Shown one piece after another: positions 4,268 to 27,787 of a stretch of 34,402 nucleotides of DNA (within the stretch, counting starts at the first letter, position 1; each line of letters opens with the position of its first letter). The translations under genes and the position numbers were made by a program. The notes under the pieces were generated by a model. That model was given only the letters and a program-made list of their open reading frames with translations, did no database searches and was not told the DNA's origin. The DNA is from an uncultured Planctomycetota bacterium (lineage in GTDB: Bacteria > Planctomycetota > JAJSAM01 > JAKLKS01): assembly GCA_964633345.1 (NCBI GenBank), contig CAZWGT010000002.1:1-34402 (forward strand), given 5' to 3'.

Positions 4268-4983
4268 CACAGCCTCCCGATGCGGTGGAGGCGCCACTCC
4301 GCGCGGCACTGCTGGTTGTACACGCCGACCACCCCTCGCAGGTCCCGGTCCGCGGGGACCTCGAAGGTCAGGCAGGCGCGCCCGTCGAGCCATACGTCGA
4401 TCGTGTGGTCCCGGACGGTGAACCCGAACCGGTGCCACGCTCCCGGGTCGACGGCGGAGATGTCCTTGCGGACCAGCTCCCTCTTCCCGGCGTCGGAGAC
4501 CGAGAAGACGACGAGGGCGCTCTTCTGCACGAAGACGGAGACGAAGTCCTCCGACCTCCCGCCCTCCTTCTCGGCGAAGGTGAGGCCGGTCAGCCAGTTG
4601 GACCCGTACTCCTCCTGGAGGCGGAACTCCATCTCGTAGGCGAAGTGGTTGCCGGGGTCGGTGGAGGACTTGGGCACCAGGCGGTCGGCGGTCTTCGAGT
4701 TGAAGATCATGTGCCCGTCCTTCATCTCGGCCATGTGGTCGGCCACGAAGCTCCTGCGCGAGAGGAAGTCGATCCAGGTCTTCACCGCGCGGAAGGGCGG
4801 CGGCACGCCGTCGTCCACCGGGCTCTCCGGCGCCTTCCCCCCGAGGTCGGCGTAGAGCTTCCGCGCCGCTTCGTGGCCGGGCCGGATCTTCAGGAGCATC
4901 TCCAGGGCCTGGCGTCCGGCCGCCGGCTCCTTCTCCGCCCGGGCCGAGGCGAACTTCATGACGTCCGCCGCGAAGGCATCCAC
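4267..4983 (-). CDS. ConA/DUF1080-like domain protein. This is the downstream part of a TPR + ConA-like gene interrupted by an in-frame TAG; protein-like sequence continues upstream to 5199
   Basis: Minimal ORF from GTG 4983. Stop TGA 4269-4267 overlaps the ATG of the next gene (ATGA). The C-terminal half (WIDFLSRRSFVADHMAEMKDGHMIFNS...WHRFGFTVRDHTIDVWLDGRACLTFEV) resembles the neighbour's lectin-like domain. The same frame is open and TPR-like from 5199 down to 4984. Confidence 0.65.
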   Translation of the reverse strand: MDAFAADVMKFASARAEKEPAAGRQALEMLLKIRPGHEAARKLYADLGGKAPESPVDDGVPPPFRAVKTWIDFLSRRSFVADHMAEMKDGHMIFNSKTADRLVPKSSTDPGNHFAYEMEFRLQEEYGSNWLTGLTFAEKEGGRSEDFVSVFVQKSALVVFSVSDAGKRELVRKDISAVDPGAWHRFGFTVRDHTIDVWLDGRACLTFEVPADRDLRGVVGVYNQQCRAEWRLHRIGRL

Positions 4984-5199
4984 CAGGGCGTCGTACTCCT
5001 TCTCGCCGGCCGCGAGGACGGAGACCCGCTTCTCCGCCAGAGGCTTCAGCTTCGCCTCCTCGGAGGTGGGCTTGCCGGTGCCCGCCTTCTCCCCGAGCAG
5101 GACCAGGAACTCGCGGTACGACTCTAGAGCGTCGGCCGCGGCGCCGCTGCGGTCCTGGCAGGCGCCCCTCCAGTAGACCGCCTCGATCAGGTCCGTGTC

Positions 5200-5421
5200 C
5201 TAGTCCCGGGCGCGCTGGACGTGGGTGAGCGCCTCGCCGTACTTCTTCTTCTCGAGGTACTCCCGTCCCGTCTTGAGCAGGGTCCGGGCGACCCCGGGAT
5301 CCCCGACGCCGGCGGCGCCCGCGGCGAGGAGGCAGGCGAGCAGGGCGGCAAGCAGGGCGGCCCCGCACCGGAGGGGTCCCGGAAACCCGATCCGCGGCCA
5401 GCGAGAATCCCCGGTCCCCAT
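5200..5421 (-). pseudogene. N-terminal fragment (signal peptide + first TPR helix) of the interrupted TPR + ConA-like gene, ending at in-frame TAG 5202-5200
   Basis: 73 codons: [38 protein letters not shown]...[22 protein letters not shown] then TAG. 5421 minus 4983 = 438 = 3 x 146, so it is in frame with ORF 4267-4983. Confidence 0.5.
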
Positions 5422-5605
5422 CGTGGACGGCTCCTTGCCCGGACGGGGGGGATCCTATCTCCGTCCCGGGGGAGGGTGTCCGCAACTTCCGCGTCGCGGG
5501 CGCGGACGGTCACCCCCGTCGGCACGGTCGGAACTCCCGCGGCCCGGGGCCGTCTGCGATACTGCCGCGCCTCCGTCGGATCCCCGCAGGAAAGGAAGGA
5601 CTCCC

Positions 5606-6832
5606 GTGAGCCAGCTCGTCCCGCCGCACGGCCGCGACAGGGTGCTGAAGCCGCTGCTCCTCGAGGGGGCGGCGCTGGCCGAGGCGAAGACGAAGGCCGC
5701 GACGCTGAAGCGCATCCCCATCACATCCCGCGAGACCGGCGACGCCATCATGATGGGCATCGGCGGGTTCACGCCGCTCCGCGGCTTCATGGGGAGCGCC
5801 GACTGGAAGTCCGTCTGCACGCGGATGCAGACCTCCGACGGCACCTTCTGGCCCATCCCCGTCACCGTCTCCGCGTCGAAGGCGGACGCCGACGCGATCG
5901 CGATCGGGAGCCAGGTCACCCTCGTGGACGAGGAGACCGGCACCGACATGGCGATCCTCACGGTCGAGGAGAAGTACGCCATCGACCGGGCCCTGGAGTG
6001 CCGGGAGGTCTTCCGCACCGAGGACCCCAAGCACCCCGGAGTCGCCATGGTCATGGCCCAGAAGGAGGTCAACCTCGGCGGCCCGATCCAGGTCCTGTCC
6101 GAGAGCTACTTCCCGGTCGAGTTCGCGGGGGTCTACAAGCGCCCGGCCGAGACCCGCCGGCTCTTCGAGGAGAAGGGGTGGAGGACGGTGGCCGCGCTCC
6201 AGCTCCGCAACCCGATGCACCGCTCCCACGAGTTCCTCGCCAAGATCGCGCTCGAGGTCCTCGACGGGCTCTTCATCCACCAGCTCGTCGGCAAGCTCAA
6301 GCCCGGCGACATCCCCGCCGACGTCCGCGTGCGGTGCGTGGACACCCTCGTCGACAAGTACTTCGTGAAGAACTCCGCGCTGCAGGGCGGCTACCCGCTG
6401 GACATGCGCTACGCCGGGCCGCGCGAGGCGCTGCTGCACGCGGTGTTCCGCCAGAACTACGGCTGCAGCCACCTCATCGTCGGCCGCGACCACGCCGGCG
6501 TGGGGGACTACTACGGGCCGTTCGACGCGCAGAAGATCTTCGACGAGATCCCGGCGGGCTCCCTCGAGACCGTGCCCCTGAAGATCGACTGGACATTCCA
6601 CTGCTCGAAGTGCCGCGGCATGGCGTCGATGAAGACCTGCCCCCACGGCAAGGAGGACCGGCTCATGGTCAGCGGGACCATGGTGCGCAAGACCCTCTCC
6701 GAGGGGGGCGAGCTCCACCCCGACTTCAGCCGGCCCGAGGTGCTCGCGATCCTCAAGGAGTACTACGCGGGCCTCGACACGAAGGTCGAGGTCAAGCTCC
6801 ACGGCGCGGCCACGGGGGACGCGAAGCGCTGA
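5606..6832 (+). CDS. sat: Sulfate adenylyltransferase (ATP sulfurylase), about 400-aa homo-oligomeric type
   Basis: GTG 5606 preceded by GGAAAGGAAGGA. Motifs [11 protein letters not shown] and GRDHAG, plus the C-terminal region with CSKC...CPH. The upstream part of the 535-aa ORF is R/P-rich and rejected. Confidence 0.9.
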
Positions 6833-6898
6833 GCCGCGCGGCCGGGCCCCTCCGCTCCCCGTGCTACCATCGCGCCCTCCACGGGGGACGCCCACCGC

Positions 6899-9268
6899 AT
6901 GTACCGTCGCCTCCTCGACCGGGGCTGGCTCGCCGTCGTCCTGCTCTTCGCGGCGGGCGTCGCGGGCCTCGGGGCATTCCTCCCCGGGCTGACCGTGGAC
7001 GCCTCCACGAACATCCTCCTCGACGGGAAGGACCCCGACCTCACGTACTACTCGCGGTCGCGCCGCCTCTGGCCCGGGGACGACGAGTTCGCCATCGTCT
7101 GCGCCCGCCGGGCCGACTGGTTCACGCCGGAGTCCCTCGCCGTCCTCCGCGGCCTGCAGGACGATCTCGAGAAGGCCCCCCGCGTCCAGAAGGTCCTCTC
7201 CCTCCTGTCCGTGCCGCTCCTGCGCCAGGGGCCGATCCCCGTCCCGATGCTGGTCGAGGCGAAGAAGGTGGACCTCGCGAAGGCCAGGGAGGAGCTCCTC
7301 GGCCACGCCGTCGCCCGGGGGACCTTCATCTCCGCCGACGGGAAGGACGCGGTGCTCCTCGCCTACCTCGACCAGCCCCCCGAGTACCGTCGCCTCGACC
7401 GCGAGCGGGCCGCCATGAACGACGCGGGGGACGCCGCGGGGCTGGCCGCCACGGAGGAGGCCTTCGAGGCGGCGGCCGGGGAGATGCGGGCCCGTCGCCG
7501 GGAGATGGTCGAGGGGCTGCGGGCGGTCGCGGCGCGGTGGACGCCGCGGATGGAGACCCCGATCCGGCTCTCGGGGCTGCCGATCATCAACCTCAACCTC
7601 ATCGAGTTCGTGCGCCACGACCTCGACGTGTTCGGCGCGGCGAGCCTCGTCCTGTTCCTCCTCGCCTTCGCCCTCGTCTACCGGAGGCTCCGCTGGATCG
7701 GGCTGCCCATCGTCGCCTGCGCCATCCCGGTCGTCCTCATCCTCGGGGCGATGACGGCCCTCGGCCTGAAGCTCACCGTCATCACCGCCAACCTCCCGCT
7801 CCTCCTCTTCGTCGTCATGCTCCCGTACACCGTGTACTTCATCGAGCGGTACCGGGAGCGGCGGGCGCGGAGGACCGGCGAGGACCACCTCGAGTCCACG
7901 GTCGGGGCGGCGCGGGACGTCTGGCTGCCCTGCCTCTACTCCTGCACGACGACCATGGCCGGCTTCGCCTCCCTCCTGACGAGCGGCGTCAAGCCGGTCT
8001 GGTGGTTCGGGTTCATGATGACCGTCGGGCTCGGGGTCGGCCTCGGCTGCGCCTTCCTCTTCCTCCCCGCGGCGACGCGGCCGCTGGGGGCCCTGGAGGA
8101 CCCGCGCGCTGAGGCGGACCCGAAGCCCCACGGGCTCGTGCTCCTCCTCGAGAGGCTCGTGCTCGCCGCCCCGCTCCCCGTCGTGCTGTCCGGCGTGGTG
8201 CTGCTGGCCGGGGCGGTCTGGGGCTGCACCCGCATCACCGTCGAGAACAAGTTCATCGACTACTTCCGGCCCGACACCGAGGTCTACGCGGGCCTGGAGT
8301 ACATCGACCAGCACATGGGGGGAACGACGCCCCTCGACGTCATCCTCGTCTCGAAGGAGCCCGGCTTCTTCAGGCGCCCCGAGGGGATCGAGGCGATCCG
8401 CGCCGCCTCGGCGTACCTCGCGAAGGTCCCCGAGGCGGCGAGCGTGACGTCGCTGGCGACGCTCCTCGACGAGGCGCGCAAGGCGAAGGCGTTCTCGAGG
8501 ATGACCGTGGAGAGCCTGTCGAAGATCAAGGCCGTGGAGCCGCTCCTGCTCGACGTGGCGACCGCCGACTTCTCGACGGCCCGAGTCCTCGTGCGCTTCC
8601 GGGAGACCGCCCCGACCCTCAACCGCAAGGCGATCCTCGACGGCCTGCGGGCCGACCTCGCGTCCAGGAAGGAGCTCGCGGACCTCTCGCCGCGGGTGAC
8701 GGGGGTGTTCCTCCTCTACGCGAACATGCTCCAGTCCCTCCTCCAGAGCCAGAAGGACACCTTCTGGACCGTCGTGGGGGCGATCTACGCGATGCTGTTC
8801 CTGCTGTTCGGGGGGCTCCGGGCGGCCGGGCACGCGGCGGCGCTGTCCGTGGTGGTCGTCGTGCCGCAGGTGCTGCCGGCGGTGGCGATCCTCGGGGTGA
8901 TGGGCTGGACCGGGGTCCCGCTCGATCTCATCACGGTGACCATCGCGGCCGTGGCCATGGGGGTGGGGATCGACGCCGCCATCCAGTACACGGTGCGCTA
9001 TCGGATCGAGCTGGCCGCCACGGGCGGGGACCGGCGGGAGTCGGTGCGGAGGAGCCACGCGACCATCGGGCGCTCCATCTGGATCGCCACGTCGATCATG
9101 GTGGCGGGGTTCGCGGTCCTGGCCCTGTCCGACTTCGTCCCCACGGTGATGTTCGGGCTGTTCAACGCGCTGGCCATGGTGATGGGACAGTTCGCGGCGC
9201 TGACCGTGCTCCCCTCCCTCTTCCTTCTGACGGGGCTGCCGCGGCACGAACCGGCGGCGCCCCCGTGA
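6899..9268 (+). CDS. MMPL/RND-superfamily exporter (HpnN-like lipid transporter family)
   Basis: 789 aa. Two blocks of about 6 TM helices, each following a large soluble loop. Typical MMPL strings (LPIINLNLIEFVRHDLDVFG, TTMAGFASLLTSGVKPVWWFG, AVAMGVGIDAAIQY, SIMVAGFAVLALSDFVP). Confidence 0.85.
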   Translation: MYRRLLDRGWLAVVLLFAAGVAGLGAFLPGLTVDASTNILLDGKDPDLTYYSRSRRLWPGDDEFAIVCARRADWFTPESLAVLRGLQDDLEKAPRVQKVLSLLSVPLLRQGPIPVPMLVEAKKVDLAKAREELLGHAVARGTFISADGKDAVLLAYLDQPPEYRRLDRERAAMNDAGDAAGLAATEEAFEAAAGEMRARRREMVEGLRAVAARWTPRMETPIRLSGLPIINLNLIEFVRHDLDVFGAASLVLFLLAFALVYRRLRWIGLPIVACAIPVVLILGAMTALGLKLTVITANLPLLLFVVMLPYTVYFIERYRERRARRTGEDHLESTVGAARDVWLPCLYSCTTTMAGFASLLTSGVKPVWWFGFMMTVGLGVGLGCAFLFLPAATRPLGALEDPRAEADPKPHGLVLLLERLVLAAPLPVVLSGVVLLAGAVWGCTRITVENKFIDYFRPDTEVYAGLEYIDQHMGGTTPLDVILVSKEPGFFRRPEGIEAIRAASAYLAKVPEAASVTSLATLLDEARKAKAFSRMTVESLSKIKAVEPLLLDVATADFSTARVLVRFRETAPTLNRKAILDGLRADLASRKELADLSPRVTGVFLLYANMLQSLLQSQKDTFWTVVGAIYAMLFLLFGGLRAAGHAAALSVVVVVPQVLPAVAILGVMGWTGVPLDLITVTIAAVAMGVGIDAAIQYTVRYRIELAATGGDRRESVRRSHATIGRSIWIATSIMVAGFAVLALSDFVPTVMFGLFNALAMVMGQFAALTVLPSLFLLTGLPRHEPAAPP

Positions 9269-9885
9269 TCCGGCTGGCCGTCGTGGCCGGGGCGCTGCTC
9301 CTGTGGTTCTGGACCCAGAGGCTGCTCGGCCGCCGCCCTCCCCCGGAGGGGACGGTGGGGGACCGCGTCCACGGGTGGACGGCCGCCCTGCACGCCCGCC
9401 TCCTCGCCCGGCCCCGCGCCGCCGACGCGACCCTCGTCGCCTCCTCGCTCCTCATCGACGCCGTCGGTCTCTCCCTGGTGGCGGCCTCCCTCCTCGGCCC
9501 CACCTTCCGCCCCTTCCTCGCGCTCATGGTCGTGTTCACCCTCCGCCAGGCCTGCCAGGCCCTCTGCACCCTGCCCGCGCCGCCGGGGATGATCTGGCGC
9601 GACCCGGGGTTCCCGACCCTCCTCGTGACCTACAAGGTGGGGAACGACTTCTTCTTCAGCGGCCACACGGCCATCGCGGTCCTCGGCGCCCTCGAGGCGG
9701 CGCGGTCCGGGCCCCCCTGGCTGGCCGCCGCCGCCGCGGCCGTGGCGGTCCTCGAGGCCGGCGCCGTCCTCGTCCTGCGGGCCCACTGGACGATGGACGT
9801 CCTCGCGGGGGTCCTCGCGGCTGTCCTCGGCGACGCCCTCGCCGCGCGGGCGGCACCCTTCGTGGACGGGTGGCTCGGGCCCTGA
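9265..9885 (+). CDS. PAP2_C / sphingomyelin-synthase-like phosphotransferase, small 4-6 TM membrane protein
   Basis: GTG 9265 overlaps the MMPL stop (GTGA). Motifs GNDFFFSGHT and HWTMDV match the SMS D3 (CGDxxxSGHT) and D4 (HYTxDV) motifs. Preceded by LRQACQALCTLP (D2-like R...T.LP). Confidence 0.8.
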   Translation: MIRLAVVAGALLLWFWTQRLLGRRPPPEGTVGDRVHGWTAALHARLLARPRAADATLVASSLLIDAVGLSLVAASLLGPTFRPFLALMVVFTLRQACQALCTLPAPPGMIWRDPGFPTLLVTYKVGNDFFFSGHTAIAVLGALEAARSGPPWLAAAAAAVAVLEAGAVLVLRAHWTMDVLAGVLAAVLGDALAARAAPFVDGWLGP

Positions 9886-9936
9886 CGGGGATTCGCGCCC
9901 GCCCGCGGGGCCGTCCGGGAGCGGTACCGCCCCGCC

Positions 9937-9968
9937 GATGGCCATCCATTGTTTGGATGGATGGCATC
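9937..9968. promoter_or_regulatory. AT-rich imperfect palindrome upstream of the selenoprotein candidate
   Basis: GATGG-CCATCCA-TTGTT-TGGATGG-ATGG-CATC. 7-bp perfect inner stem (9942-9948 / 9954-9960) plus a 4-bp outer stem. Lies in the 173-nt gap 9886-10058 and is one of the few AT-rich spots in the window. Confidence 0.25.
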
Positions 9969-10058
9969 GAAGAACGCCCCGTTCCCCGCGGGGGATCCTT
10001 CTTCCCCGCGACCATGGGTCGGACCGAGACTCGTCGCCGTCCACTGGAGGGACCAACC

Positions 10059-11042
10059 ATGAGGCGCACCCTGGCGGCCGCGCTCGCCGGGATCCTGCTC
10101 GCGGCCGCGGCCGGATCGGCCGCGGCGGCGCAGGACCCGGGCGCCGAGAAGAAGGCCAAGCAGCAGGCCGAGTTCAAGGCGAAGCTCGAGGCGAAGCTGA
10201 AGGAGCCGTGGCTCGTCGACTACGGCTGGATGACCGACTACGACAAGGCGCGGGAGAAGGCGGCGGCGGAGAAGAAGCTCATCGTCGCCTACTTCACGCG
10301 CTCCTACTCGCCCTGACCGCCCTGCGAGCAGCTGGAGGGCAGTGTGCTCTCCACCCCGGAGTTCAAGGAGTTCGCCAAGGACGTGGTCCTCTTCACCAGC
10401 ATCATGTCCCGCGTCGAGGGGGACAAGTACCCGAACCTGCTCTCCGAGAAGGGCGGGAACGGCTTCCCCTACGTCGTGGCCATGGACGCGAAGGGGGAGG
10501 TCCTCTCCGACCTGTCCTCCCGGTCGGTGGACGGGTTCAAGGCGATGATGAAGGGGGCCGCCGACTACCAGGCCCTCCGCGCGAAGAAGGACCACACGCC
10601 GGCGGAGCAGCTGAAGCTGCTGGGCCTCGACCTCGCCCGCGGCCGCATCAAGGGCCCCGAGTACCGCGAGCGGGCCGCGAAGATCGATGGCCTCGACGAG
10701 GCGGCGATCCAGGAGCGCACCGCGACGATCCTCCACCTCGACATCGCCGCCGAGCTGGAGAAGATCCGCAACGCCGGCGGCCCGGCGCCGGAACTCCGGC
10801 ACGAGGTCGGCGGGAAGTTCGCCGGGTGGCACAAGGCGGGCCTCGGCCCCAGGGACCCGCGGTACGCCGGCTCCTTCTACGAGCTCATCATGAACTACGC
10901 GGAGAAGGAGAAGGACGCCGAGCTGTTCGGCGCCGCCCTCGCGAAGCTGAAGGAGTTCTTCGGGGACCAGAAGCGCCTCGAGGGCTACTTCAAGGGCCTG
11001 CAGGAGAAGCTGGACAAGCTCAAGGCCGACGCCGGGAAGTAG
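10059..11042 (+). CDS. Secreted thioredoxin-fold protein with in-frame TGA (10314-10316) at the first position of the CxxC motif (U-P-P-C); candidate selenoprotein with a helical C-terminal domain
   Basis: ATG 10059 with GGAGGG 10046-10051. Signal peptide MRRTLAAALAGILLAAAAGSAAAAQ. Translation reads ...KKLIVAYFTRSYSP[TGA]PPCEQLEGSVLSTPEFKEFAKDVVLF...NGFPYVVAMDAKGEV (cis-Pro loop). ORFs 9303-10316 and 10344-11042 share one frame (10344 minus 10059 = 285). A hairpin lies 16 nt after the TGA. Confidence 0.65.
10333..10353 (+). promoter_or_regulatory. Candidate bacterial SECIS-like hairpin
   Basis: UGGAGGG-CAGUGUG-CUCUCCA: 7 bp (one G-U) with a 7-nt loop containing GU. The stem begins 16 nt 3' of UGA 10314-10316. 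Confidence 0.45.
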
Positions 11043-11048
11043 GAGCCG

Positions 11049-11825
11049 TCAGCGCACCAGCGTGGTGACCATCCTCGCCGCGACCGCGACGGCCGCGGCG
11101 AGGAACACCCACCGGAGGAAGCGCGCCCCCTTCGCGATGGCCATGCGCGACCCGCACCAGCTCCCCGCGGCGTTGGCGGCCGCCATCGGGATCGCCACCG
11201 GCCACGCGACGAGCCCCTTGGCGATGAACGTCGCGAGGGAGGCGGCGTTCGATCCGAAGTTCATGCACTTCGCGTTCCCCGTCCCGACCACGTAGTCGAA
11301 GCGCAGGAACCGCACCATCGCGAAGACGAGGAAGGACCCGGTCCCGGGCCCGAAGAACCCGTCGTAGAAGCCGATGAGGACCCCGGCGGCCGCCGTGATG
11401 GCCAGATTCCGGGGCGTCGGCCCCTCGAAGGCGCTCTCCCCGCCGAGGGACCTTCGGAAGAACATGTGCAGCGCCGCGGCCACGAGGAGGACGCCGAAGA
11501 TCGCCTCCGCGAGCCCCTCGTCCGCCCTCCCCAGCCGGGCGAGGGCCAGCGCGCCGGACACCGCCCCCGCGGCGGCCGCCGCCGCGCCGAGGCCGGCGAT
11601 CCTCCGATCCACCTTCCCCTTCCACAGGAAGGTCAGGGTCGCCGTGACGGAGCCGGCCGTGCCCACGACCTTGTTCGTCCCGCCCACCAGGGGCATCGGG
11701 AAGCCGAAGGAGGCGATGGCGGGGACCGTGAGGATCCCTCCGCCGCCGGCCATCGCGTCGATCCACCCCGCGGCGAAGGCGACCGCGGTGCAGAGGGCGA
11801 CGTGGAGAGTTTCGGGCTCGGGCAC
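11049..11825 (-). CDS. TauE/SafE (DUF81) family anion/sulfite exporter-like permease
   Basis: Typical strings AGWIDAMAGGGGILTVPA and IGFYDGFFGPGTGSF. The ORF is open to ATG 11939, but the first 38 codons are R/P-rich. GTG 11825 gives about 258 aa, which fits the family and avoids overlap with the divergent gene. The start is uncertain (11825 or 11939). Confidence 0.75.
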   Translation of the reverse strand: MPEPETLHVALCTAVAFAAGWIDAMAGGGGILTVPAIASFGFPMPLVGGTNKVVGTAGSVTATLTFLWKGKVDRRIAGLGAAAAAAGAVSGALALARLGRADEGLAEAIFGVLLVAAALHMFFRRSLGGESAFEGPTPRNLAITAAAGVLIGFYDGFFGPGTGSFLVFAMVRFLRFDYVVGTGNAKCMNFGSNAASLATFIAKGLVAWPVAIPMAAANAAGSWCGSRMAIAKGARFLRWVFLAAAVAVAARMVTTLVR

Positions 11826-11865
11826 GGGCCCCGGAGGATACCGGGGGCGCGGCGGAGGGGGACCC

Positions 11866-12855
11866 GTGGAACCGAGCAGGCCGAGGCCGGCGCGCCTCGC
11901 CGCCGCCACCCTCGCCCTCTTCCTCGTCTGGAGCAGCACCTTCCTCGCCTTCGAGGTCCTGCTCGCCCCGTCCGCGGGGCCGGCGCCCCTCGGCTGGGCC
12001 GAGCTCCTCCTGGCGCGGTACGTCCCCGCGGCGGCGCTCTGCGGGGGCTGGTGCCTCCTGTTCCGGCGCGCGGAATCGGCGGCCGTCGTCCGCCGCCACG
12101 GGGGGCGGCTCCTCCTCGCGGGCCTCCTCTGCGTCCCGGGCTACAACGGGCTCCTCTACCACGGGATGGAGGGGCGCGTGGAGGGGCCCATCGCGTCGGT
12201 CCTCACCTCGCTGACGCCGCTCTACCTCGCGGTCCTGGGGGCGGCCTTCCTCGGGGAGGCGATGACGGCGCGCAAGGTGGCGGGGCTCGTCCTGGGGTTC
12301 GGCGGGGTGGCCGTGCTGGCCTCGGCGAAGGAGGGGGCGGGCGCGCCGCGCGCGGTCCTCGTGGCGGAGGTGGCCCTCGCCCCCCTGTGCTGGTCGGCCT
12401 ACTCCGCCCTGACCCGCCCGGTCGCGAGGGAGCACCCGCCCGTGGTGTGGACCTTCCTCGTGCTCGCCGCGGGGGGGCTGCTCTCGACCCCGCTGCTCCT
12501 CGTCGCGGACGCCGGGCGGGTCGCGGCCCTCGACGGGACCGGCCTCGCCCTGGTCGCGGGCCTCGTTCTCCTGGCCACCGTGTTCGGGTTCGCCGTCTGG
12601 TCCTGGCTCCTCCGCCACCTGCCGGCGAGCACCGTCGGCCTCACGGTCTTCCTCAACCCGCCGATGACGATGGCGTCCAAGACCGCCCTCGCCGCGCTGT
12701 TCCCGGCGTCCTTCGCCGTCTCCGTCTCGCCGAGGGAGTGGGCGGGCGGGGCGCTGGCGCTCCTCGGCGTGGCGGTGGCCGTCGTGCGCCTCACCCCCGG
12801 GACCGCCGCCACCACCACCACCCCGCCAGGTGGAGCAGGACCACCAGCGCCGTGA
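11866..12855 (+). CDS. DMT superfamily (EamA-like) transporter
   Basis: GTG 11866 preceded by GGCGGAGGGGG. About 10 TM helices in two halves (LFLVWSSTFLAFEV..., VFGFAVWSWLLRHLPASTVGLTVFLNP). The upstream part of the 493-aa ORF is antisense to the TauE gene and was rejected. Confidence 0.8.
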   Translation: MEPSRPRPARLAAATLALFLVWSSTFLAFEVLLAPSAGPAPLGWAELLLARYVPAAALCGGWCLLFRRAESAAVVRRHGGRLLLAGLLCVPGYNGLLYHGMEGRVEGPIASVLTSLTPLYLAVLGAAFLGEAMTARKVAGLVLGFGGVAVLASAKEGAGAPRAVLVAEVALAPLCWSAYSALTRPVAREHPPVVWTFLVLAAGGLLSTPLLLVADAGRVAALDGTGLALVAGLVLLATVFGFAVWSWLLRHLPASTVGLTVFLNPPMTMASKTALAALFPASFAVSVSPREWAGGALALLGVAVAVVRLTPGTAATTTTPPGGAGPPAP

Positions 12856-13069: not shown

Positions 13070-13160
13070 GGATCCGTTCTACCCCGGACCGTGGTAGAAG
13101 ATCCCGACTCGGCGGGCCCCACGGGTGGGGGCCGGAGGCGAACGCGGACAAGGAGGTCCC

Positions 13161-13814
13161 ATGAGGACGCGCACGGCGCTGGTCGCGATGGCGATGGTCT
13201 TCGGTCTCGGCTGGACGGCGAACCGGGTCTTCTCCCAGGACGGCGGCATGGAGGGGAAGAAGCCCGAGGCGAAGGAGGAGGAGAAGAAGGCCCCCGCGGG
13301 CCCGACCGCCGAGGAGATGGCGGCCTGGGAGAGGGCGATGACCCCGGGCGAGCCCCACAAGAAGATGGCGGCCCAGGAGGGCGCCTGGGAGTCCACCGGG
13401 AAGATGTGGATGGATCCCGCCCAGCCCCCGACCGAGATGAAGGGCGCGGCGAAGTTCCGGATGATCTTCGGCGGGCGCTACCAGATCCAGGAGTACACCG
13501 GCGAGATGATGGGCATGCCCTTCGAGGGGATGTCCATCGCCGGGTACGACAACGTCCGGAAGAAGTACTTCTCCACCTGGATCGACTCGATGGGCACCGG
13601 GGTGATGAACAGCGAGGGGACGGCCGACGAGAAGGGGACCGTGACCTACCACGGCATGATGACCGACCCCGCGACGGGCGGCGACTGCAAGGTGCGGATG
13701 GTCTTCCCCGCCGCCAAGGACAAGGACTCGATCGCCTTCGAGATGTACGTGGACGACGGGAAGGGCAAGGGCGAGGTGAAGTGCATGGAGATGAACTACA
13801 CGCGCAAGAAGTAG
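13161..13814 (+). CDS. DUF1579-like secreted protein
   Basis: ATG 13161 preceded by a perfect AGGAGG (13151-13156). Signal peptide MRTRTALVAMAMVFGLGW. Also MTPGEPHKKMAAQEGAWESTGKMWMDP...FGGRYQIQEYTGEMMGMPFEGMSIAGYDNVRKKYFSTWIDSMGTG. Confidence 0.8.
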   Translation: MRTRTALVAMAMVFGLGWTANRVFSQDGGMEGKKPEAKEEEKKAPAGPTAEEMAAWERAMTPGEPHKKMAAQEGAWESTGKMWMDPAQPPTEMKGAAKFRMIFGGRYQIQEYTGEMMGMPFEGMSIAGYDNVRKKYFSTWIDSMGTGVMNSEGTADEKGTVTYHGMMTDPATGGDCKVRMVFPAAKDKDSIAFEMYVDDGKGKGEVKCMEMNYTRKK

Positions 13815-14486: not shown

Positions 14487-15608
14487 ATGAGCCCCGGCCC
14501 CCATTCCGAGTTCGTCGCGCGATCCCTCGAGGCCTGGGAGAGGGAGGGCCTCCGCCGCCGCGTCCGGACGGCGCCCGGCCCGGGGCCGCGGACGACCCTC
14601 GACGGGCGCGCGGTGGTCTCCTTCGCCTCCAACGACTACCTCGGCCTCGCCGGGGATCCGCGCCTGGCCGCCGCCGCGGCCCGTGCCGCCGAGGAGGAGG
14701 GCTCGGGCGCCGGGGCCGCGCGGCTCATGACCGGGAGCCGCCCCTCCCACGACGCCCTGGAGCGGGAGGCCGCCGCGTTCAAGGGCGCGGAGGCGGCGCT
14801 GCTGTTCGGCTCGGGGTACGCGTGCAACGTCTCGCTGATCCCGGCGCTGGCGGGGAAGGGGGACCTCGTCGTCTCCGACGCCCTCAACCACGCCAGCCTC
14901 GTGGACGGGTGCCGTCTCTCGGGGGCGGAGATCGCCGTCGTCCCCCACGCCGACGCCGCGGCCGCGCGGGCGGCGCTGCTCCGCCCCGGGTTCCGCCGGC
15001 GCGTGCTGGTGACCGAGGGCCTCTTCTCCATGGAGGGGAGCGTCCCCGACCTCCCCGCCCTGGCGGCGGCGGCGCGGGAGGCGGGGGCGCTGCTCGTCGT
15101 GGACGACGCCCACGGCACCGGGGTCCTCGGGCCCGGCGGGCGCGGGGCCGTCGCGGCGGCGGGCCTCGCCCCCGGCCCCGACCTCCTCGAGGTCGCCACC
15201 CTCGGCAAGGCCTTCGGCGCCTACGGGGGGTTCGTCGCGTGGACCGCGGAGGGGATCGACTTCCTCCGCCACCGCGCACGGGGCTTCGTGTTCTCCACGG
15301 CCCTCCCCCCCTCCGTCGCGGCCATGGGGCGGGAGGGGATGCGGATCGCCGCGGCGGAGCCGGAGCGCCGGGATCGCGTGCTCGCCCTGGCGCGGCGGTT
15401 CGGCGGCACGACCCCCGTCGTCCCCGTGGCGGTGGGGGACGTCGCGGAGACGGTCCGCGCCTCCGAACGCCTCCTCGATCGCGGGTTCTGGGTCCCCGCG
15501 GTCCGCCCCCCGACGGTGCCCGAGGGGACGGCGCGCCTCCGCGTCAGCCTCTCCGCGGCGCACACCGAGCACGAGGTGGACGCGCTCCGGGAGGCCCTCC
15601 GTGGCTAG
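14487..15608 (+). CDS. bioF: 8-amino-7-oxononanoate synthase
   Basis: 373 aa. ASNDYLGL, GSGYACN, DALNHASL, VVDDAHGTGVLG and ATLGKAFG (PLP lysine) motifs typical of the BioF/KBL alpha-oxoamine synthase family. Operon context with bioDA and bioB. Confidence 0.9.
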   Translation: MSPGPHSEFVARSLEAWEREGLRRRVRTAPGPGPRTTLDGRAVVSFASNDYLGLAGDPRLAAAAARAAEEEGSGAGAARLMTGSRPSHDALEREAAAFKGAEAALLFGSGYACNVSLIPALAGKGDLVVSDALNHASLVDGCRLSGAEIAVVPHADAAAARAALLRPGFRRRVLVTEGLFSMEGSVPDLPALAAAAREAGALLVVDDAHGTGVLGPGGRGAVAAAGLAPGPDLLEVATLGKAFGAYGGFVAWTAEGIDFLRHRARGFVFSTALPPSVAAMGREGMRIAAAEPERRDRVLALARRFGGTTPVVPVAVGDVAETVRASERLLDRGFWVPAVRPPTVPEGTARLRVSLSAAHTEHEVDALREALRG

Positions 15609-17655
15609 GGGCGTCCTCGTCACCGGCACAGGGACCGGGGTCGGCAAGACCGCCGTGGCGGCGGCGCTGGCGCGGATCCTCCTGCGGCGCGGCCTCTCCG
15701 TCGGCGTGATGAAGCCCGCGGCGACGGGCGTGCCGCCCGACGACGACGCCGATCTCCTCCGGGCCGCGGCGGGATCGGACGATCCCCCCGACCTCGTCTC
15801 CCCGCTCCGCTTCCGTGATCCCCTCGCCCCGGCCGTCGCCGCGGACCGCGAGGGGAGGAGCCCCGATCCGGAGGCGATCCGGCGCGCCTTCGCCGCGATC
15901 GCGGGGCGCCGCGCGTTCACCGTCGTCGAGGGCGTGGGCGGGCTCCTCGTCCCCGTCGCGTGGGGGTTCACCGTCGCCGACATGGCGCGGGACCTCGGCC
16001 TCCCGCTGCTCGTCGTCGCCCCGGCGGGCCTGGGGACCCTCAACCACGCGGCGCTGACCGTGGAGGCGGCGCGGTCCCGGGGGATCCCGGTGCTCGGCGT
16101 GGTGCTCGTGCGCGAATCCGCGGGGGCGCCGGGCCTCGCCGAGGAGACCAATCCCGCGGCCCTCGAACGGTTGTGCGGGGTCCGCGTGCTGGCGGTGATG
16201 GAGCGCGTCGCGGCGGGCAGGGAGCGGGATCCCGACGCCCTGGCCGACGCCCTCGGCCCCGGCGCCGCGTCGATCCTCGCCGATGCGCTCCCCGCGGGCG
16301 GGGACGCCGTCGCCCGCTGGAAGCGCCTCGACCGGGCCCACGTCTGGCACCCGTTCACGCAGATGCAGGAGTGGACCGACCCCGTCGTCATCGAGAGGGG
16401 CGAGGGCCCGTACCTCTGGGACGTCGAGGGCCGCCGGTACATCGACGGGGTCTCCTCCCTCTGGGTCACCGTGCACGGCCACCGCACGCCGGAGATCGAC
16501 GCCGCCGTCGCCTCCCAGCTCGGGAAGCTCGCCCACTCCACGCTGCTGGGCCTCTCCAACGTGCCGTCCATCGAGCTGGCCGAGCGCCTCGTGCGCGTCG
16601 CCCCGCCGGGCCTCGTCCGCGTCTTCTACTCCGACTCCGGGTCCACCGCGGTGGAGGTCGCCCTCAAGATGGCCTTCCAGCACCAGCGCCGCCGCGGGGA
16701 GGAGCGCCGCACGAAGTTCGTCTTCCTCGAGGGCGGCTACCACGGGGACACCCTCGGCGCCGTGAGCGTGGGGGGGATCGACCTCTTCCACCGGCTCTTC
16801 CGCCCGCTCCTGTTCGCCTCCCACCGCGTGCCTGCGCCCCACTGCTTCCGCTGCCCCGTCGGGAAGACGTTCCCCTCCTGCGGGATCGACTGCGTGCTCC
16901 CCCTCGAGGAGGCGCTCCGCGACCACGGGCCGGAGATCGCCGCGGTGATCGTCGAGCCGGTGATGCAGGGCGCGGCGGGGATGATCCCCCAGCCCGCGGG
17001 ATGGCTCCCGCGCGTGGCGGCGGCGGCGCGGGCGGCCGGGGCGCTGCTCATCGCCGACGAGGTGGCCGTCGGGCTCGGCCGGACGGGGCGGTGGTTCGCC
17101 GTGGAGCACGAGGGCGTGCGCCCGGACCTGCTGGCCGTCGCCAAGGGCCTCTCCGGGGGCTACCTCCCCCTCGCGGCGACGCTCGCGACGGAGGAGATCC
17201 ACGCCTCCTTCCTCGGGCGCCACGAGGAGATGCGCACCTTCTTCCACGGGCACACCTACACGGGCAACCCGCTGGCCTGCGCCGCCGCGGTCGCCAACCT
17301 CGACCGCATGACGCGGGAGGGAACCGTCGGGGAGGCGGCGCGCAAGGGGGAGATCCTCGGCGCCCTCCTCGAGCCCCTGCGGTCGCTCCGTCCGGTGGGG
17401 GACGTCCGCCGGCGGGGCATGATGGCCGGCGTGGAACTGGTCCGGGACGCCGCCTCGCGGGAGCCCTTCCCGCCGGGGGAGCGGGCCGGCCGGAGGGTCT
17501 GCGAGGAGGCGCGGCGGCGCGGCGTGCTGCTCCGCCCCCTCGGGGACGTCGTCGTCGTGATGCCGCCCCTCGGGACGCCGGACGTCGTGCTGGGGGAGAT
17601 CGCCGGGGTCCTGGCCGCGTCGATCCGCGCGGCACTACCGGAGGAGAACCGATGA
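15601..17655 (+). CDS. bioDA: Bifunctional dethiobiotin synthetase (N-terminal) / adenosylmethionine-8-amino-7-oxononanoate aminotransferase (C-terminal) fusion
   Basis: GTG 15601 overlaps the bioF stop by 8 nt. N-terminal P-loop VTGTGTGVGKT and VEGVGGLLVP (BioD). From about residue 240: HVWHPFTQM, DSGSTAVEVALKMA, DEVAVGLGRTG and AKGLSGGYLPL (PLP Lys), which mark BioA. Single uninterrupted 684-codon frame. Confidence 0.9.
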   Translation: MARGVLVTGTGTGVGKTAVAAALARILLRRGLSVGVMKPAATGVPPDDDADLLRAAAGSDDPPDLVSPLRFRDPLAPAVAADREGRSPDPEAIRRAFAAIAGRRAFTVVEGVGGLLVPVAWGFTVADMARDLGLPLLVVAPAGLGTLNHAALTVEAARSRGIPVLGVVLVRESAGAPGLAEETNPAALERLCGVRVLAVMERVAAGRERDPDALADALGPGAASILADALPAGGDAVARWKRLDRAHVWHPFTQMQEWTDPVVIERGEGPYLWDVEGRRYIDGVSSLWVTVHGHRTPEIDAAVASQLGKLAHSTLLGLSNVPSIELAERLVRVAPPGLVRVFYSDSGSTAVEVALKMAFQHQRRRGEERRTKFVFLEGGYHGDTLGAVSVGGIDLFHRLFRPLLFASHRVPAPHCFRCPVGKTFPSCGIDCVLPLEEALRDHGPEIAAVIVEPVMQGAAGMIPQPAGWLPRVAAAARAAGALLIADEVAVGLGRTGRWFAVEHEGVRPDLLAVAKGLSGGYLPLAATLATEEIHASFLGRHEEMRTFFHGHTYTGNPLACAAAVANLDRMTREGTVGEAARKGEILGALLEPLRSLRPVGDVRRRGMMAGVELVRDAASREPFPPGERAGRRVCEEARRRGVLLRPLGDVVVVMPPLGTPDVVLGEIAGVLAASIRAALPEENR

Positions 17656-27771: not shown

Positions 27772-27787
27772 GCGTCCCCGCGGTAGC

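What the first reader, a model, noticed from the sequence alone, without database searches (positions are those of the whole stretch)
10059..11042. Candidate secreted selenoprotein: thioredoxin fold with TGA-P-P-C in place of CxxC
The frame from ATG 10059 (SD GGAGGG, clear signal peptide) meets TGA at 10314-10316 and continues in the same frame to TAG 11040-11042. Across the stop it reads KKLIVAYFTRSYSP-[TGA]-PPCEQLEGSVLSTPEFKEFAKDVVLF...GNGFPYVVAMDAKGEV. This is the beta1 / redox motif / alpha1 ... cis-Pro loop order of a thioredoxin fold, and the TGA falls exactly where the N-terminal nucleophilic Cys of CxxC belongs (U-P-P-C). Neither half would be a complete Trx fold: the upstream 85-codon piece lacks alpha1 and the cis-Pro, and the downstream ORF (GTG 10344) lacks the signal peptide, beta1 and the first redox residue. 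UxxC thioredoxin-like selenoproteins are an established bacterial class. This one is unusual in being exported and fused to a roughly 190-aa helical C-terminal domain. A SECIS-like hairpin follows (separate finding).
Basis: partly seen in the sequence, partly recalled or inferred. Interest (0 to 1): 0.8.

Follow-up and report, generated by a model that had tools for sequence, protein, structure and literature searches.

The report
Exported thioredoxin-like selenoprotein, mis-annotated as truncated
The in-frame TGA at 10314 almost certainly encodes selenocysteine in the active site of a secreted thioredoxin-fold redox protein, which belongs to a large, mostly Planctomycetota family that public annotation splits in two and that I could not find in current selenoprotein catalogues.

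Summary
ATG 10059, TGA 10314-16 and TAG 11040-42 lie in one frame. GC3 is 0.99 on both sides, and a Pfam Thioredoxin_7 match above threshold spans the TGA.

- **Conservation of the TGA.** It sits in the same column (YFTRSY-x-x-U-[P/G]-P-C) in 6 close metagenomic orthologues. It is also there in at least 110 genes from about 92 species-representative genomes, nearly all Planctomycetota.
- **Cys forms.** Many full-length homologues have CxxC at that position.
- **SECIS hairpin.** A 9-bp hairpin (10333-10353, loop GUG, 25 nt after UGA, -13.3 kcal/mol) meets every criterion of the published bacterial SECIS model. It is found in 101 of 116 Sec forms and shows compensatory changes. It is more stable than synonymous-codon randomisation predicts, and it is missing at that place in all 5 Cys forms examined.
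- **Fold.** An AlphaFold model of a Cys homologue (pLDDT 93.5) puts the residue at the N-cap of helix alpha1 of a DsbH/DsbD-gamma-like fold. An all-alpha C-terminal domain with no known family follows.

Not shown: selA/B/C/D in this genome, and any biochemistry. The kind of protein is well known. The family appears uncatalogued (no NCBIfam or Pfam model reaches threshold).

The parts
10046..10051 (+). Shine-Dalgarno-like GGAGGG, 7 nt before the ATG
   Evidence: read directly from the sequence
10059..11042 (+). Complete recoded gene: 327 codons plus TAG, with selenocysteine (UGA) as codon 86
   Evidence: Single frame. GC3 is 0.99 on both sides of the TGA. Full-length Cys homologues of 300-350 aa are colinear with it.
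10059..10130 (+). Predicted Sec-type signal peptide (about 24 residues, AAA|AQ site; the boundary is approximate)
   Evidence: N-terminal basic residues plus a hydrophobic 10-mer (KD 2.65). The same feature is present in 79 of 81 full-length family representatives. This is a heuristic only.
10227..10490 (+). Thioredoxin_7 (DsbH/DsbD-gamma-like) domain, residues 57-144, spanning the UGA
   Evidence: Pfam PF13899, 35.9 bits against a cut-off of 27. 41 of 43 family members match it. Family profile against PDB sequences: DsbH 2ju5, E 4.5e-10. Foldseek top hit is 2ju5.
10314..10316 (+). UGA read as selenocysteine (U86)
   Evidence: TGA is in the same alignment column in L001, L002, L003/4/8, L005, L006 and L009, and TGC in L007. 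At least 110 further genes keep TGA there.
10314..10325 (+). Redox motif U-P-P-C (TGA CCG CCC TGC)
   Evidence: Sec forms carry U-PP-C (81), U-GP-C (30), U-AP-C (3). Cys forms are mostly C-x-x-C. In the model of the Cys homologue the first Cys is at the N-cap of helix alpha1, right after strand beta1.
10333..10353 (+). Bacterial SECIS hairpin: 5' arm 10333-10341 (UGGAGGGCA), loop 10342-10344 (GUG), 3' arm 10345-10353 (UGCUCUCCA). It starts 16 nt after the UGA, and the apical loop is 25 nt after it.
   Evidence: -13.3 kcal/mol. Meets all four constraints of the published bSECIS model (PMC13188914). Conserved with compensatory changes. Present in 101 of 116 Sec forms at 23-25 nt. Absent at this place in 5 Cys forms.
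10467..10469 (+). Codon of the cis-Pro-loop proline (P137 in G-F-P-Y)
   Evidence: The column is nearly invariant in the family (P147 of P0002) and lies immediately before strand beta3 in the model. That it is cis is inferred from the thioredoxin fold.
10527..11039 (+). C-terminal all-alpha domain (about 170 residues, eight helices counting the linker helix; boundary approximate)
   Evidence: AF2 model of the homologue P0002: helices 167-332 with pLDDT above 90. No Pfam or NCBIfam family. Only weak TPR-like structural resemblances.
10344..11042 (+). The truncated 232-aa ORF that public annotation calls in place of the real gene. Its GTG start lies inside the SECIS hairpin (last loop base plus first two bases of the 3' arm).
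   Evidence: P0001, source NCBI, 100% identical to this stretch

Best explanation
The region 10059-11042 is one gene for an exported two-domain selenoprotein. During translation the UGA at codon 86 is recoded. The hairpin 16 nt downstream (apical loop G-U-G, 25 nt from the UGA) is a bacterial SECIS element. It would tether SelB-GTP-Sec-tRNA(Sec) to the ribosome, so that selenocysteine is inserted and translation continues to TAG 11040. The product carries a cleavable signal peptide and is exported. The mature protein of about 300 residues has a DsbH/DsbD-gamma-type thioredoxin fold. Its attacking nucleophile is Sec86, in a U-P-P-C motif at the N-terminus of helix alpha1, with Cys89 as the resolving residue. 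An all-alpha C-terminal domain follows, which probably holds a partner or substrate. The most likely activity is periplasmic thiol/selenol-disulfide exchange in the reducing direction: reduction or isomerisation of disulfides, or reduction of oxidised Cys/Met, in envelope proteins. Shown here: one frame, the conserved UGA/Cys pair, the conserved covarying hairpin, the fold, and the family distribution. Inferred: SelB dependence, export, the direction of the redox reaction, and the role of the helical domain.
For: Reading frame and domain:
- One frame, with coding composition on both sides of the TGA.
- A Thioredoxin_7 hit above threshold across the TGA.

Conservation of the UGA/Cys pair:
- Six independent metagenomic orthologues (56-75% identity) keep TGA in the same column, and the 9 codons between the TGA and the annotated GTG start are conserved as protein.
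- The 54%-identical homologue L007 has TGC at that position.
- phmmer against 1.84 billion representatives finds 817 family members. Of the best 155, 85 are full length (50 with CxxC) and 70 begin just after the motif, which is the signature of split Sec genes.
- A DNA pattern for YF[TS]RS[YF]xx-TGA-xx-C found at least 120 places in species-representative genomes. 110 of these are true homologues by BLASTP, and almost all are in Planctomycetota MAGs. All 13 chance matches are from other phyla.

Hairpin:
- 9 bp, loop GUG, 25 nt from the UGA, -13.3 kcal/mol, so it satisfies all four published bSECIS constraints.
- 101 of 116 distinct Sec forms have such a hairpin, 100 of them with the loop 23-25 nt from the UGA.
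- 84% of stem cells are paired. 79 cells carry changes on both sides against 22.6 in shuffles (0 of 500 shuffles reach the observed value), and slid registers give 41-72% paired.
- Observed stability is -12.9 kcal/mol against -7.7 after synonymous-codon randomisation.
- All 6 close Sec forms keep a rare T-ending codon ([A/C]GT) that supplies the loop U, in genes with GC3 of 0.96-0.99.
- Five Cys forms lack a hairpin at that place.

Other points:
- UGA is an ordinary stop for neighbouring genes, so the code is not reassigned.
- The AF2 model of the Cys homologue (pLDDT 93.5, pTM 0.83) puts the residue at the N-cap of alpha1. The closest structures are DsbH 2ju5 and DsbD-gamma.
- Complete selA/B/C/D sets are documented in several Planctomycetes (PMC4807772, Table S8).
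Against: - The Sec machinery (selA, selB, selC, selD) could not be looked for in the genome this contig comes from. None of it is in the window or in any of about 105 fetched 8-kb loci.
- The organism of the window was not identified directly. The Planctomycetota assignment rests on the family's distribution and on a DUF1579 gene nearby.
- There is no experimental evidence of selenium incorporation for any member.
- Part of the stem complementarity comes from the conserved peptide L-E-x-G-x-L-S: randomised synonymous versions still fold to about -7.7 kcal/mol.
- Only 5 Cys-form DNAs were available as a control.
- 15 of 116 Sec forms have only an imperfect stem by my strict scan.
- The structure model is of a 54%-identical Cys homologue, not of this protein.
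- The gene neighbourhood gives no functional clue, so the reducing direction and the substrate are analogy only (DsbH).
- A His that is nearly invariant in the family (H124 of P0002) is Ser114 here.
Confidence: 0.9

Rival explanations
1. UGA is a real stop here. The locus would hold two separate genes (an 85-residue exported peptide and a 232-residue cytoplasmic protein starting at GTG 10344), or a pseudogene broken by a nonsense mutation or a sequencing error.
For: This is how gene callers and the public annotation treat it. All close homologues are recorded as an 85-aa ORF plus a roughly 240-aa ORF, and P0001 is the only product on record for this contig.
Against: The same 'nonsense' codon in the same column in at least 110 genes from about 92 genomes cannot be error or decay. 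The 27 nt between the TGA and the GTG are conserved as in-frame protein (P-P-C-x-x-L-E). Neither half is a complete fold, and the Pfam domain and the confident AF2 fold both run across the position. Cys forms are contiguous. The supposed GTG start sits inside a stable hairpin, and no Shine-Dalgarno-like purine run (GGAGG/AGGA) lies in the 20 nt ahead of it (read).
Confidence: 0.03
2. The UGA is read through, but not as selenocysteine. The hairpin would stimulate near-cognate read-through (Trp, Cys or Arg), or the lineage would reassign UGA.
For: Sec machinery was not demonstrated in this genome. Downstream hairpins can stimulate read-through in general (own knowledge).
Against: UGA terminates neighbouring genes in the window, and this is the only TGA in 34 kb with coding sequence on both sides, so there is no reassignment. 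The position is the nucleophilic Cys of a CxxC motif and alternates only with Cys across the family, which is the classic Sec/Cys pair. The hairpin has the size, spacing and G-[G/U] apical loop of SelB-binding SECIS elements rather than an arbitrary structure. Planctomycetes with full Sec machinery are documented.
Confidence: 0.05
3. The hairpin is only a by-product of the conserved peptide L-E-x-G-x-L-S (GAG pairs with CUC) and has no RNA function.
For: Cys forms also keep L-E-x-G-x-L. Synonymously randomised sequences still fold to -7.7 kcal/mol on average.
Against: Observed stems are about 5 kcal/mol more stable than randomised ones, with a median z of -2.15 over 115 genes. Compensatory double changes occur at synonymous third positions, for example CUG...UCC to CUC...UCG at pair 27-45 (GC 63, CG 14). 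A rare T-ending codon that supplies the loop U is fixed in the close Sec forms. Five Cys forms with the same peptide motif lack a hairpin at that place.
Confidence: 0.04

Closest known systems
DsbH, the periplasmic disulfide reductase of Chlamydia (PDB 2ju5; NCBIfam NF043050)
   Same: It is the closest solved structure by sequence profile (E 4.5e-10) and by fold (Foldseek E 4.7e-4, TM 0.64 on the target, rmsd 3.0 A). Both are exported Thioredoxin_7-type domains with xFTxS-x-x-C-x-x-C and a G-F-P cis-Pro loop.
   Different: DsbH is a single domain of about 150 residues with Cys (C-M-W-C) and no helical C-terminal domain. The window protein scores 32.5 bits against an equivalog cut-off of 190, so it is not a DsbH orthologue. 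The reducing function of DsbH is carried over here only by analogy.
DsbD gamma domain and DsbD-like C-terminal domains (1uc7, 2fwe, 3f9u)
   Same: Same Thioredoxin_7 fold and the same periplasmic location.
   Different: DsbD-gamma is tethered to a membrane electron-transfer domain. Here the protein is soluble, there is no transmembrane domain, and no DsbD/CcdA gene is conserved nearby.
Catalogued thioredoxin-fold UxxC selenoproteins: thioredoxin, thiol:disulfide interchange protein (PF13098), DsbG-like, DsbA-like, GOS_C, SaoT, HUIPC-motif (table in PMC13188914)
   Same: Same logic: Sec replaces the N-terminal Cys of CxxC in a thioredoxin fold, Cys homologues exist, and a bSECIS lies directly downstream.
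   Different: None of the NCBIfam models for these families matches at E<=1. PF00085, PF01323 and PF08534 do not hit, and PF13098 scores only 19 bits against a cut-off of 27. The uncharacterised helical C-terminal domain and the largely Planctomycetota distribution are specific to this family.
Selenoprotein families built on the Thioredoxin_7 fold: Trx7/PDZ (NF041199), VPGUxxT type 2 (NF041383), rhodanese/DsbD-fusion TsoB (NF045694)
   Same: Weak similarity of the thioredoxin domain (E 4e-4 to 6e-3 for the window protein, down to 1e-8 for other members).
   Different: Scores of 15-18 bits against cut-offs of 275-805. The motifs differ (CxxU, VPGUxxT, UxxxxU) and so do the partner domains (PDZ, rhodanese).
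E. coli fdhF-type SECIS and the consensus bSECIS model (Zhang and Gladyshev, as summarised in PMC13188914)
   Same: A stem-loop directly after the UGA inside the coding sequence, with a 3-5-nt apical loop beginning G-U or G-G, 23-25 nt from the UGA, and MFE well below -7.5.
   Different: No sequence similarity to the E. coli element, and no Rfam family matches. The stem is a perfect 7-10-bp helix with no conserved bulged U. SelB binding is untested.
CnoX/YbbN chaperedoxin of E. coli (own knowledge, not tested here)
   Same: The architecture of an N-terminal thioredoxin domain followed by a helical TPR-like domain that binds client proteins.
   Different: CnoX is cytoplasmic, has an SxxC motif and true TPR repeats. 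Here the resemblance of the C-terminal domain to TPR proteins is weak and not significant (Foldseek E 0.45 or above).

Membership tests
Bacterial selenoprotein gene (UGA recoded to Sec) | In-frame UGA with protein-coding sequence on both sides in one frame | tested here: met
Bacterial selenoprotein gene (UGA recoded to Sec) | Homologues with Cys aligned to the UGA (Sec/Cys pair) | tested here: met
   L007 has TGC. 50 of 85 full-length representatives have CxxC.
Bacterial selenoprotein gene (UGA recoded to Sec) | UGA-containing orthologues in other organisms at the same position | tested here: met
   6 close orthologues. At least 110 genes in about 92 species-representative genomes.
Bacterial selenoprotein gene (UGA recoded to Sec) | bSECIS element: 3-9-nt apical loop, 4-16-bp stem, G in the first two loop positions, 16-37 nt from the UGA, MFE <= -7.5 kcal/mol | tested here: met
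   Loop GUG, 9 bp, 25 nt, -13.3 kcal/mol. Family-wide 101 of 116. Covariation.
Bacterial selenoprotein gene (UGA recoded to Sec) | selA, selB, selD and tRNA-Sec present in the same genome | not testable with these tools
   Only this contig is held, and none of these genes lies in the window or in the fetched loci. The trait is documented in other Planctomycetes.
Bacterial selenoprotein gene (UGA recoded to Sec) | Selenium shown in the protein (75Se labelling or mass spectrometry) | not testable with these tools
   experiment
Thioredoxin_7 (PF13899) / thioredoxin fold | Pfam score above the gathering cut-off | tested here: met
   35.9 bits against 27. 41 of 43 family members match.
Thioredoxin_7 (PF13899) / thioredoxin fold | Redox motif at the N-cap of alpha1 after beta1, with a cis-Pro loop before beta3 | tested here: met
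   AF2 model of the Cys homologue P0002 (pLDDT 93.5): beta1 85-91, C96, helix 97-107, P147, beta3 148-152. The motif columns are nearly invariant.
DsbH equivalog (NCBIfam NF043050) | Score at or above the curated cut-off of 190 bits | tested here: not met
   32.5 bits. For 38 of 43 members this is only a weak hit.
Trx7/PDZ, VPGUxxT type 2 and TsoB selenoprotein families (NF041199, NF041383, NF045694) | Score at or above the curated cut-offs (300, 275, 805 bits) | tested here: not met
   15.6, 17.4 and 18.5 bits
'Thiol:disulfide interchange protein' selenoprotein family (PF13098, UxxC; Kryukov and Gladyshev list) | Membership of PF13098, and homology to the representative WP_011366075.1 | tested here: inconclusive
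   PF13098 scores 19 bits, below the cut-off of 27, for the window protein. The source database records a PF13098 hit for P0002. The representative's sequence could not be fetched for a direct comparison.

The most novel reading that the evidence does not exclude
This gene would be a member of a previously uncatalogued selenoprotein family found largely in Planctomycetota: a DsbH-like thioredoxin domain with U-[P/G]-P-C joined to a new all-alpha domain. The family is present in 2-3 or more copies per genome, including in anammox bacteria (Kuenenia, Brocadiaceae), and almost half of its sequence clusters are Sec forms. That would make it one of the more Sec-rich redox families known and a main periplasmic reductant or antioxidant of these bacteria. 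Public databases systematically split it into two ORFs.
Probability: 0.55. Interest if true: 0.6.

Novelty: new member of a known kind. Interest (0 to 1): 0.5.

Why it matters
**Annotation.** In this record and in more than a hundred MAGs the gene is split. Gene callers record an 85-aa ORF and a roughly 240-aa ORF in the metagenome assemblies, and in this record only the 232-aa fragment was found on record. So the active-site half of the protein is lost from protein databases.

**Selenium biology.** The family adds a large, phylum-restricted group with a clean, strongly covarying SECIS hairpin to a catalogue dominated by Desulfobacterota and Pseudomonadota. It also indicates that Sec use in Planctomycetota, including anammox lineages, is broader than the few cases described so far.

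**Envelope redox biology.** It points to an exported selenol-based oxidoreductase with an unknown partner-binding domain, in bacteria whose periplasmic redox systems are poorly known.

Tried and rejected
- **First genome-contig scan** with the close-orthologue alignment found nothing, because its peptide patterns were too clade-specific. A hand-made degenerate DNA pattern that includes the TGA then worked.
- **Metagenome scan** gave only a third copy of the L003 gene.
- **Rfam** at gathering threshold gave no match anywhere in the window. Rfam has no general bacterial SECIS model that fits this element.
- **tRNA-Sec search** with ARAGORN in the window and about 105 loci found none. This says little, because the flanks are only 8 kb.
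- **dN/dS by Nei-Gojobori** on both sides of the TGA gave values of 0.2-0.9. I do not use them, because extreme GC3 (0.96-0.99) depresses dS.
- **Folding 76 nt around the site as a whole** gave a z-score of +1.1. GC-rich shuffles fold just as well, so total MFE is the wrong statistic. Position-specific, comparative and synonymous-randomisation tests were used instead.
- **Neighbourhood clustering** over the loci found no conserved partner gene (the largest cluster covered 9 loci), so there is no operon-based functional inference.
- **First AF2 run** with a shallow N-terminal alignment gave a poor thioredoxin domain (pLDDT 70), and its Foldseek hits were not significant. It was repeated with 43 full-length sequences.
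- **Look-up of the window's own proteins** for an accession or assembly gave no accession and no encoding record, so the source organism stays unidentified.
- **ATP sulfurylase stop.** I considered whether the TGA at 6830-32 (followed in frame by the MMPL ORF) is a second recoding site. It fails the two-sided coding-composition test.
Full report
**1. The observation**

- GGAGGG lies at 10046-51 and ATG at 10059.
- An in-frame TGA lies at 10314-16, and the same frame continues to TAG 11040-42.
- The translation across the stop is ...KKLIVAYFTRSYSP-*-PPCEQLEGSVLSTPEFKEF...

The contig has 72.5% G+C, so codon-position composition is a sharp test of coding. GC3 is 0.99 in 10059-10313, 0.89 in the 27 nt between the TGA and the next GTG, and 0.99 in 10344-11039. 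It is 0.74 in the upstream intergenic stretch. I scanned both strands of the window for TGA codons with 60 stop-free codons and coding-like composition on each side. Only this one qualified. With Cys placed at the stop, Pfam Thioredoxin_7 (PF13899) matches residues 57-144, across the stop, at 35.9 bits against a gathering cut-off of 27. Neighbouring genes end in TGA, so UGA is not reassigned in this organism.

**2. Close relatives**

A word-indexed search of 5.8 billion proteins found only seven sequences.
- One is the 232-aa downstream ORF of this very contig, from NCBI.
- Five are metagenomic proteins of 232-251 aa that cover only the C-terminal 70% of the query.
- One is a full-length 343-aa protein, P0002 (54% identity).

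On the contigs of the five truncated proteins, an 85-aa ORF precedes each by exactly 27 nt. Read on the DNA, each has TGA in the same column, S-Y-S-[P/F]-TGA-P-P-C, with conserved protein on both sides. P0002 has TGC there (S-Y-Q-A-C-P-Y-C). A more distant member (L009, 41% identity to P0002) shows the same arrangement.

**3. The family is large**

phmmer of P0002 against 1.84 billion cluster representatives gave 817 hits at E<=1e-3 and 338 at E<=1e-10. Of the best 155:
- 85 are full length (about 300-350 aa). 50 of them have C-x-x-C, 9 have S-x-x-C, and the rest are degenerate.
- 70 are 210-260 aa and begin a few residues after the motif. That is the footprint of gene callers stopping at a Sec codon.

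They contain 123 matches. 110 of these are true homologues of P0002 by BLASTP, with an open frame through the TGA.

By record title, the 107 loci that hold them break down as follows:
- 96 are labelled Planctomycetota, including Candidatus Kuenenia stuttgartiensis, Brocadiaceae, Planctomycetia and Singulisphaera.
- 10 are unnamed 'bacterium' MAGs.
- 1 is a Gemmatimonadota MAG.

All 13 chance matches come from other phyla. The 107 loci come from about 92 assemblies. At least eleven assemblies have 2-3 copies, and some copies are tandem (L044, L049, L068). The dipeptide between Sec and Cys is PP in 81, GP in 30 and AP in 3 of 116 distinct sequences.

**4. The SECIS element**

In the window, 16 nt after the UGA, lies UGGAGGGCA-GUG-UGCUCUCCA (10333-10353). 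It has 9 bp, the loop GUG, an apical loop 25 nt from the UGA, and -13.3 kcal/mol.

The published consensus model for bacterial SECIS elements asks for four things (PMC13188914, Fig. 2 legend):
- a 3-9-nt apical loop on a 4-16-bp stem;
- a G in the first two loop positions, usually followed by G or U;
- 16-37 nt between the UGA and the loop;
- MFE <= -7.5 kcal/mol.

All four are met.

Among the six close Sec forms the hairpin is nearly invariant. The only changes are A-U to G-U (in the window itself) and a widening of the loop (L006, L009). The codon that supplies the loop U, [A/C]GT, is the only A/T-ending sense codon shared by all of them, in genes where 95-99% of codons end in G or C. The Cys homologue L007 folds to only -2.4 kcal/mol over the same 25-nt hairpin segment.

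Family-wide, an ungapped alignment of 118 sequences (A5) gives the following for the nine pairs.

| Measure | Observed | 500 column shuffles |
|---|---|---|
| Cells forming a standard pair | 84.1% | 76.8% (0 of 500 reach the observed value) |
| Cells changed on both sides | 79 | 22.6 (0 of 500) |
| Covariation score | 0.352 | 0.230 |

Slid registers give 41-72% paired. The -2 slide reaches 72% because one subclade (L-E-G-G-P-L-Q-S-x-W-W-K-K) uses a stem shifted by one base on each side. Pair 27-45 alternates G-C (63) and C-G (14) at synonymous third positions (CUG...UCC against CUC...UCG).

A strict scan for perfect stems that meet the model finds one in 101 of 116 distinct Sec forms. In 100 of these the loop lies 23-25 nt from the UGA. 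Stems are mostly 7-10 bp and the median energy is -12.3 kcal/mol.

The peptide L-E-x-G-x-L-S itself favours some complementarity. I therefore randomised synonymous codons using each gene's own codon usage. The observed mean is -12.9 against -7.7 kcal/mol, with a median z of -2.15 over 115 genes. Five Cys-form genes that keep the peptide motif give -6.1 to -12.4 kcal/mol. None has a model-compliant hairpin at 23-25 nt. That control is small.

**5. The protein**

- **Signal peptide.** The N-terminus looks like a Sec-type signal peptide. 79 of 81 full-length representatives share this feature by a hydrophobicity heuristic. Few have a lipobox or a twin-arginine motif.
- **Model.** AlphaFold2 on the Cys homologue P0002 with 43 full-length family sequences gave mean pLDDT 93.5 and pTM 0.83. 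The elements are a long N-terminal helix, alpha0, beta1 (85-91), Cys96 (the Sec column) at the N-cap of helix 97-107, beta2, Pro147 before beta3, beta4, a helix (167-185), and then seven further helices (191-332).
- **Nearest structures.** Foldseek against the PDB puts DsbH of Chlamydia (2ju5) first (E 4.7e-4, TM 0.64 on the target, rmsd 3.0 A). A DsbD-like C-terminal domain (3f9u), DsbD-gamma, and AGR2/AGR3/ERp18 follow. The family profile finds 2ju5 by sequence at E 4.5e-10.
- **C-terminal domain.** It has no Pfam or NCBIfam family. It shows only weak, non-significant resemblances to TPR-like proteins.
- **Gene context.** No neighbour is conserved across the family. Among the closest orthologues, the local order MMPL - PAP2-like - [gene] - TauE (opposite strand) - EamA is shared with L001 and in part with L005.

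**6. Mechanism**

- **Shown:** a single reading frame, a Sec/Cys pair at the nucleophilic position of a thioredoxin-fold redox motif, and a conserved, covarying hairpin with the geometry of SelB-binding elements.
- **Inferred from established knowledge of bacterial Sec decoding:** SelB-GTP-Sec-tRNA(Sec) binds the hairpin and delivers Sec at the UGA. The full-length protein is exported. Sec86 attacks substrate disulfides or oxidised sulfur, and Cys89 resolves the selenenylsulfide.
- **By analogy only:** the reducing direction (from DsbH and DsbD-gamma) and a client-binding role for the helical domain (from architectures such as CnoX, own knowledge).

**7. What could not be done**

The Sec machinery could not be searched for in the source genome. 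The window and all fetched flanks lack selA/B/D and tRNA-Sec, which is uninformative at this scale. Literature shows complete selA/B/C/D sets in several Planctomycetes, namely two Porphyra-associated strains, Gemmata obscuriglobus and Isosphaera pallida (PMC4807772, Table S8). The organism of the window itself was not identified.

**8. Comparison with what is known, and novelty**

UxxC thioredoxin-fold selenoproteins with Cys homologues and a coding-region SECIS are the commonest kind of bacterial selenoprotein. Exported ones are already listed, for example DsbA-like, DsbG-like and thiol:disulfide interchange protein. The kind is therefore known.

This particular family reaches no NCBIfam cut-off in release 20:

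| NCBIfam model | Score (bits) | Cut-off (bits) |
|---|---|---|
| DsbH | 32.5 | 190 |
| TsoB | 18.5 | 805 |
| VPGUxxT type 2 | 17.4 | 275 |
| Trx7/PDZ | 15.6 | 300 |

GOS_C and the other catalogued thioredoxin-like selenoprotein models do not hit at all. PF13899 does not appear in the 2026 review's text, including its family table. The BSepDB paper's main text does not mention it, Planctomycetota or thioredoxin. The deep-Sep paper's main text does not mention Planctomycetota or thioredoxin (PF13899 was not searched there). The one listed family it might have been lumped into is 'thiol:disulfide interchange protein' (PF13098). I could not compare it with that family directly.

I rate this a new member, in effect a new family, of a known kind. 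Interest is moderate. It is a real, well-supported recoding event that is systematically mis-annotated, in a large lineage-specific family. Its principle would not surprise a specialist.

Noticed in passing
window 10342-10346: The GTG that public annotation uses as the start of the truncated 232-aa ORF (10344) is the last loop base plus the first two bases of the 3' arm of the SECIS hairpin. In the close orthologues and L009 the called ORF likewise starts 27 nt after the TGA (M-L-S-T...), at the corresponding position of the hairpin, and many of the truncated representatives also begin M-L.
   Followed up: partly
L056 (JACKIB010000002.1), minus strand, about 4058-5943 in strand coordinates: Three family paralogues lie in tandem about 920-960 nt apart. 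One is a Sec form (U-P-P-C), one a Cys form (C-P-S-C), and one has a degenerate motif (C-I-D-S). Tandem pairs of Sec forms also occur in L044 (divergent), L049 and L068.
   Followed up: partly
A5 alignment; e.g. L046, L047, L052, L093, L099, L121, L124: A subclade with the peptide L-E-G-G-P-L-Q-S-x-W-W-K-K uses a SECIS stem shifted by one base on each side (loop GGA or GGU). This is why the -2 slide control still pairs in 72% of cells. The hairpin position is conserved but its register is not.
   Followed up: partly
window 10398-10400 (Ser114): A His that is nearly invariant in the family (H124 of P0002, in L-F-x-H-V/I-T) is Ser in the window protein and Asn in L003/L004/L008. The other close orthologues keep His. 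Whether it lies near the active site was not examined.
   Followed up: no
window 5204-9268: The ATP sulfurylase ORF (PUA_2 plus ATP-sulfurylase) ends with TGA at 6830-32. The next stop-to-stop ORF (the MMPL transporter, ATG 6899) follows in the same frame with no gap. It fails the two-sided coding-composition test, so it looks like an ordinary stop with chance frame continuity.
   Followed up: yes
window 6899-12855 and L001 4881-12487, L005 862-2214: The local gene order is conserved among the closest orthologues only: NosD/beta-helix protein, MMPL transporter, PAP2-like (AtPDCT1_2) membrane protein, the selenoprotein gene, a convergent TauE/SafE-family transporter, then an EamA transporter. 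L001 has two extra ORFs (364 and 205 aa) before the selenoprotein gene. The order is not conserved across the wider family.
   Followed up: partly
window 15013-17655: One long ORF combines a dethiobiotin-synthetase-type AAA_26 domain with a class-III aminotransferase domain, which looks like a BioD-BioA fusion.
   Followed up: no
window 27746-30917: Two adjacent paralogous genes each combine HEAT repeats with a von Willebrand factor A domain. A DUF1579 gene (a domain first described in Rhodopirellula; own knowledge) lies at 13098-13814. Both fit a Planctomycetota origin for the contig.
   Followed up: no
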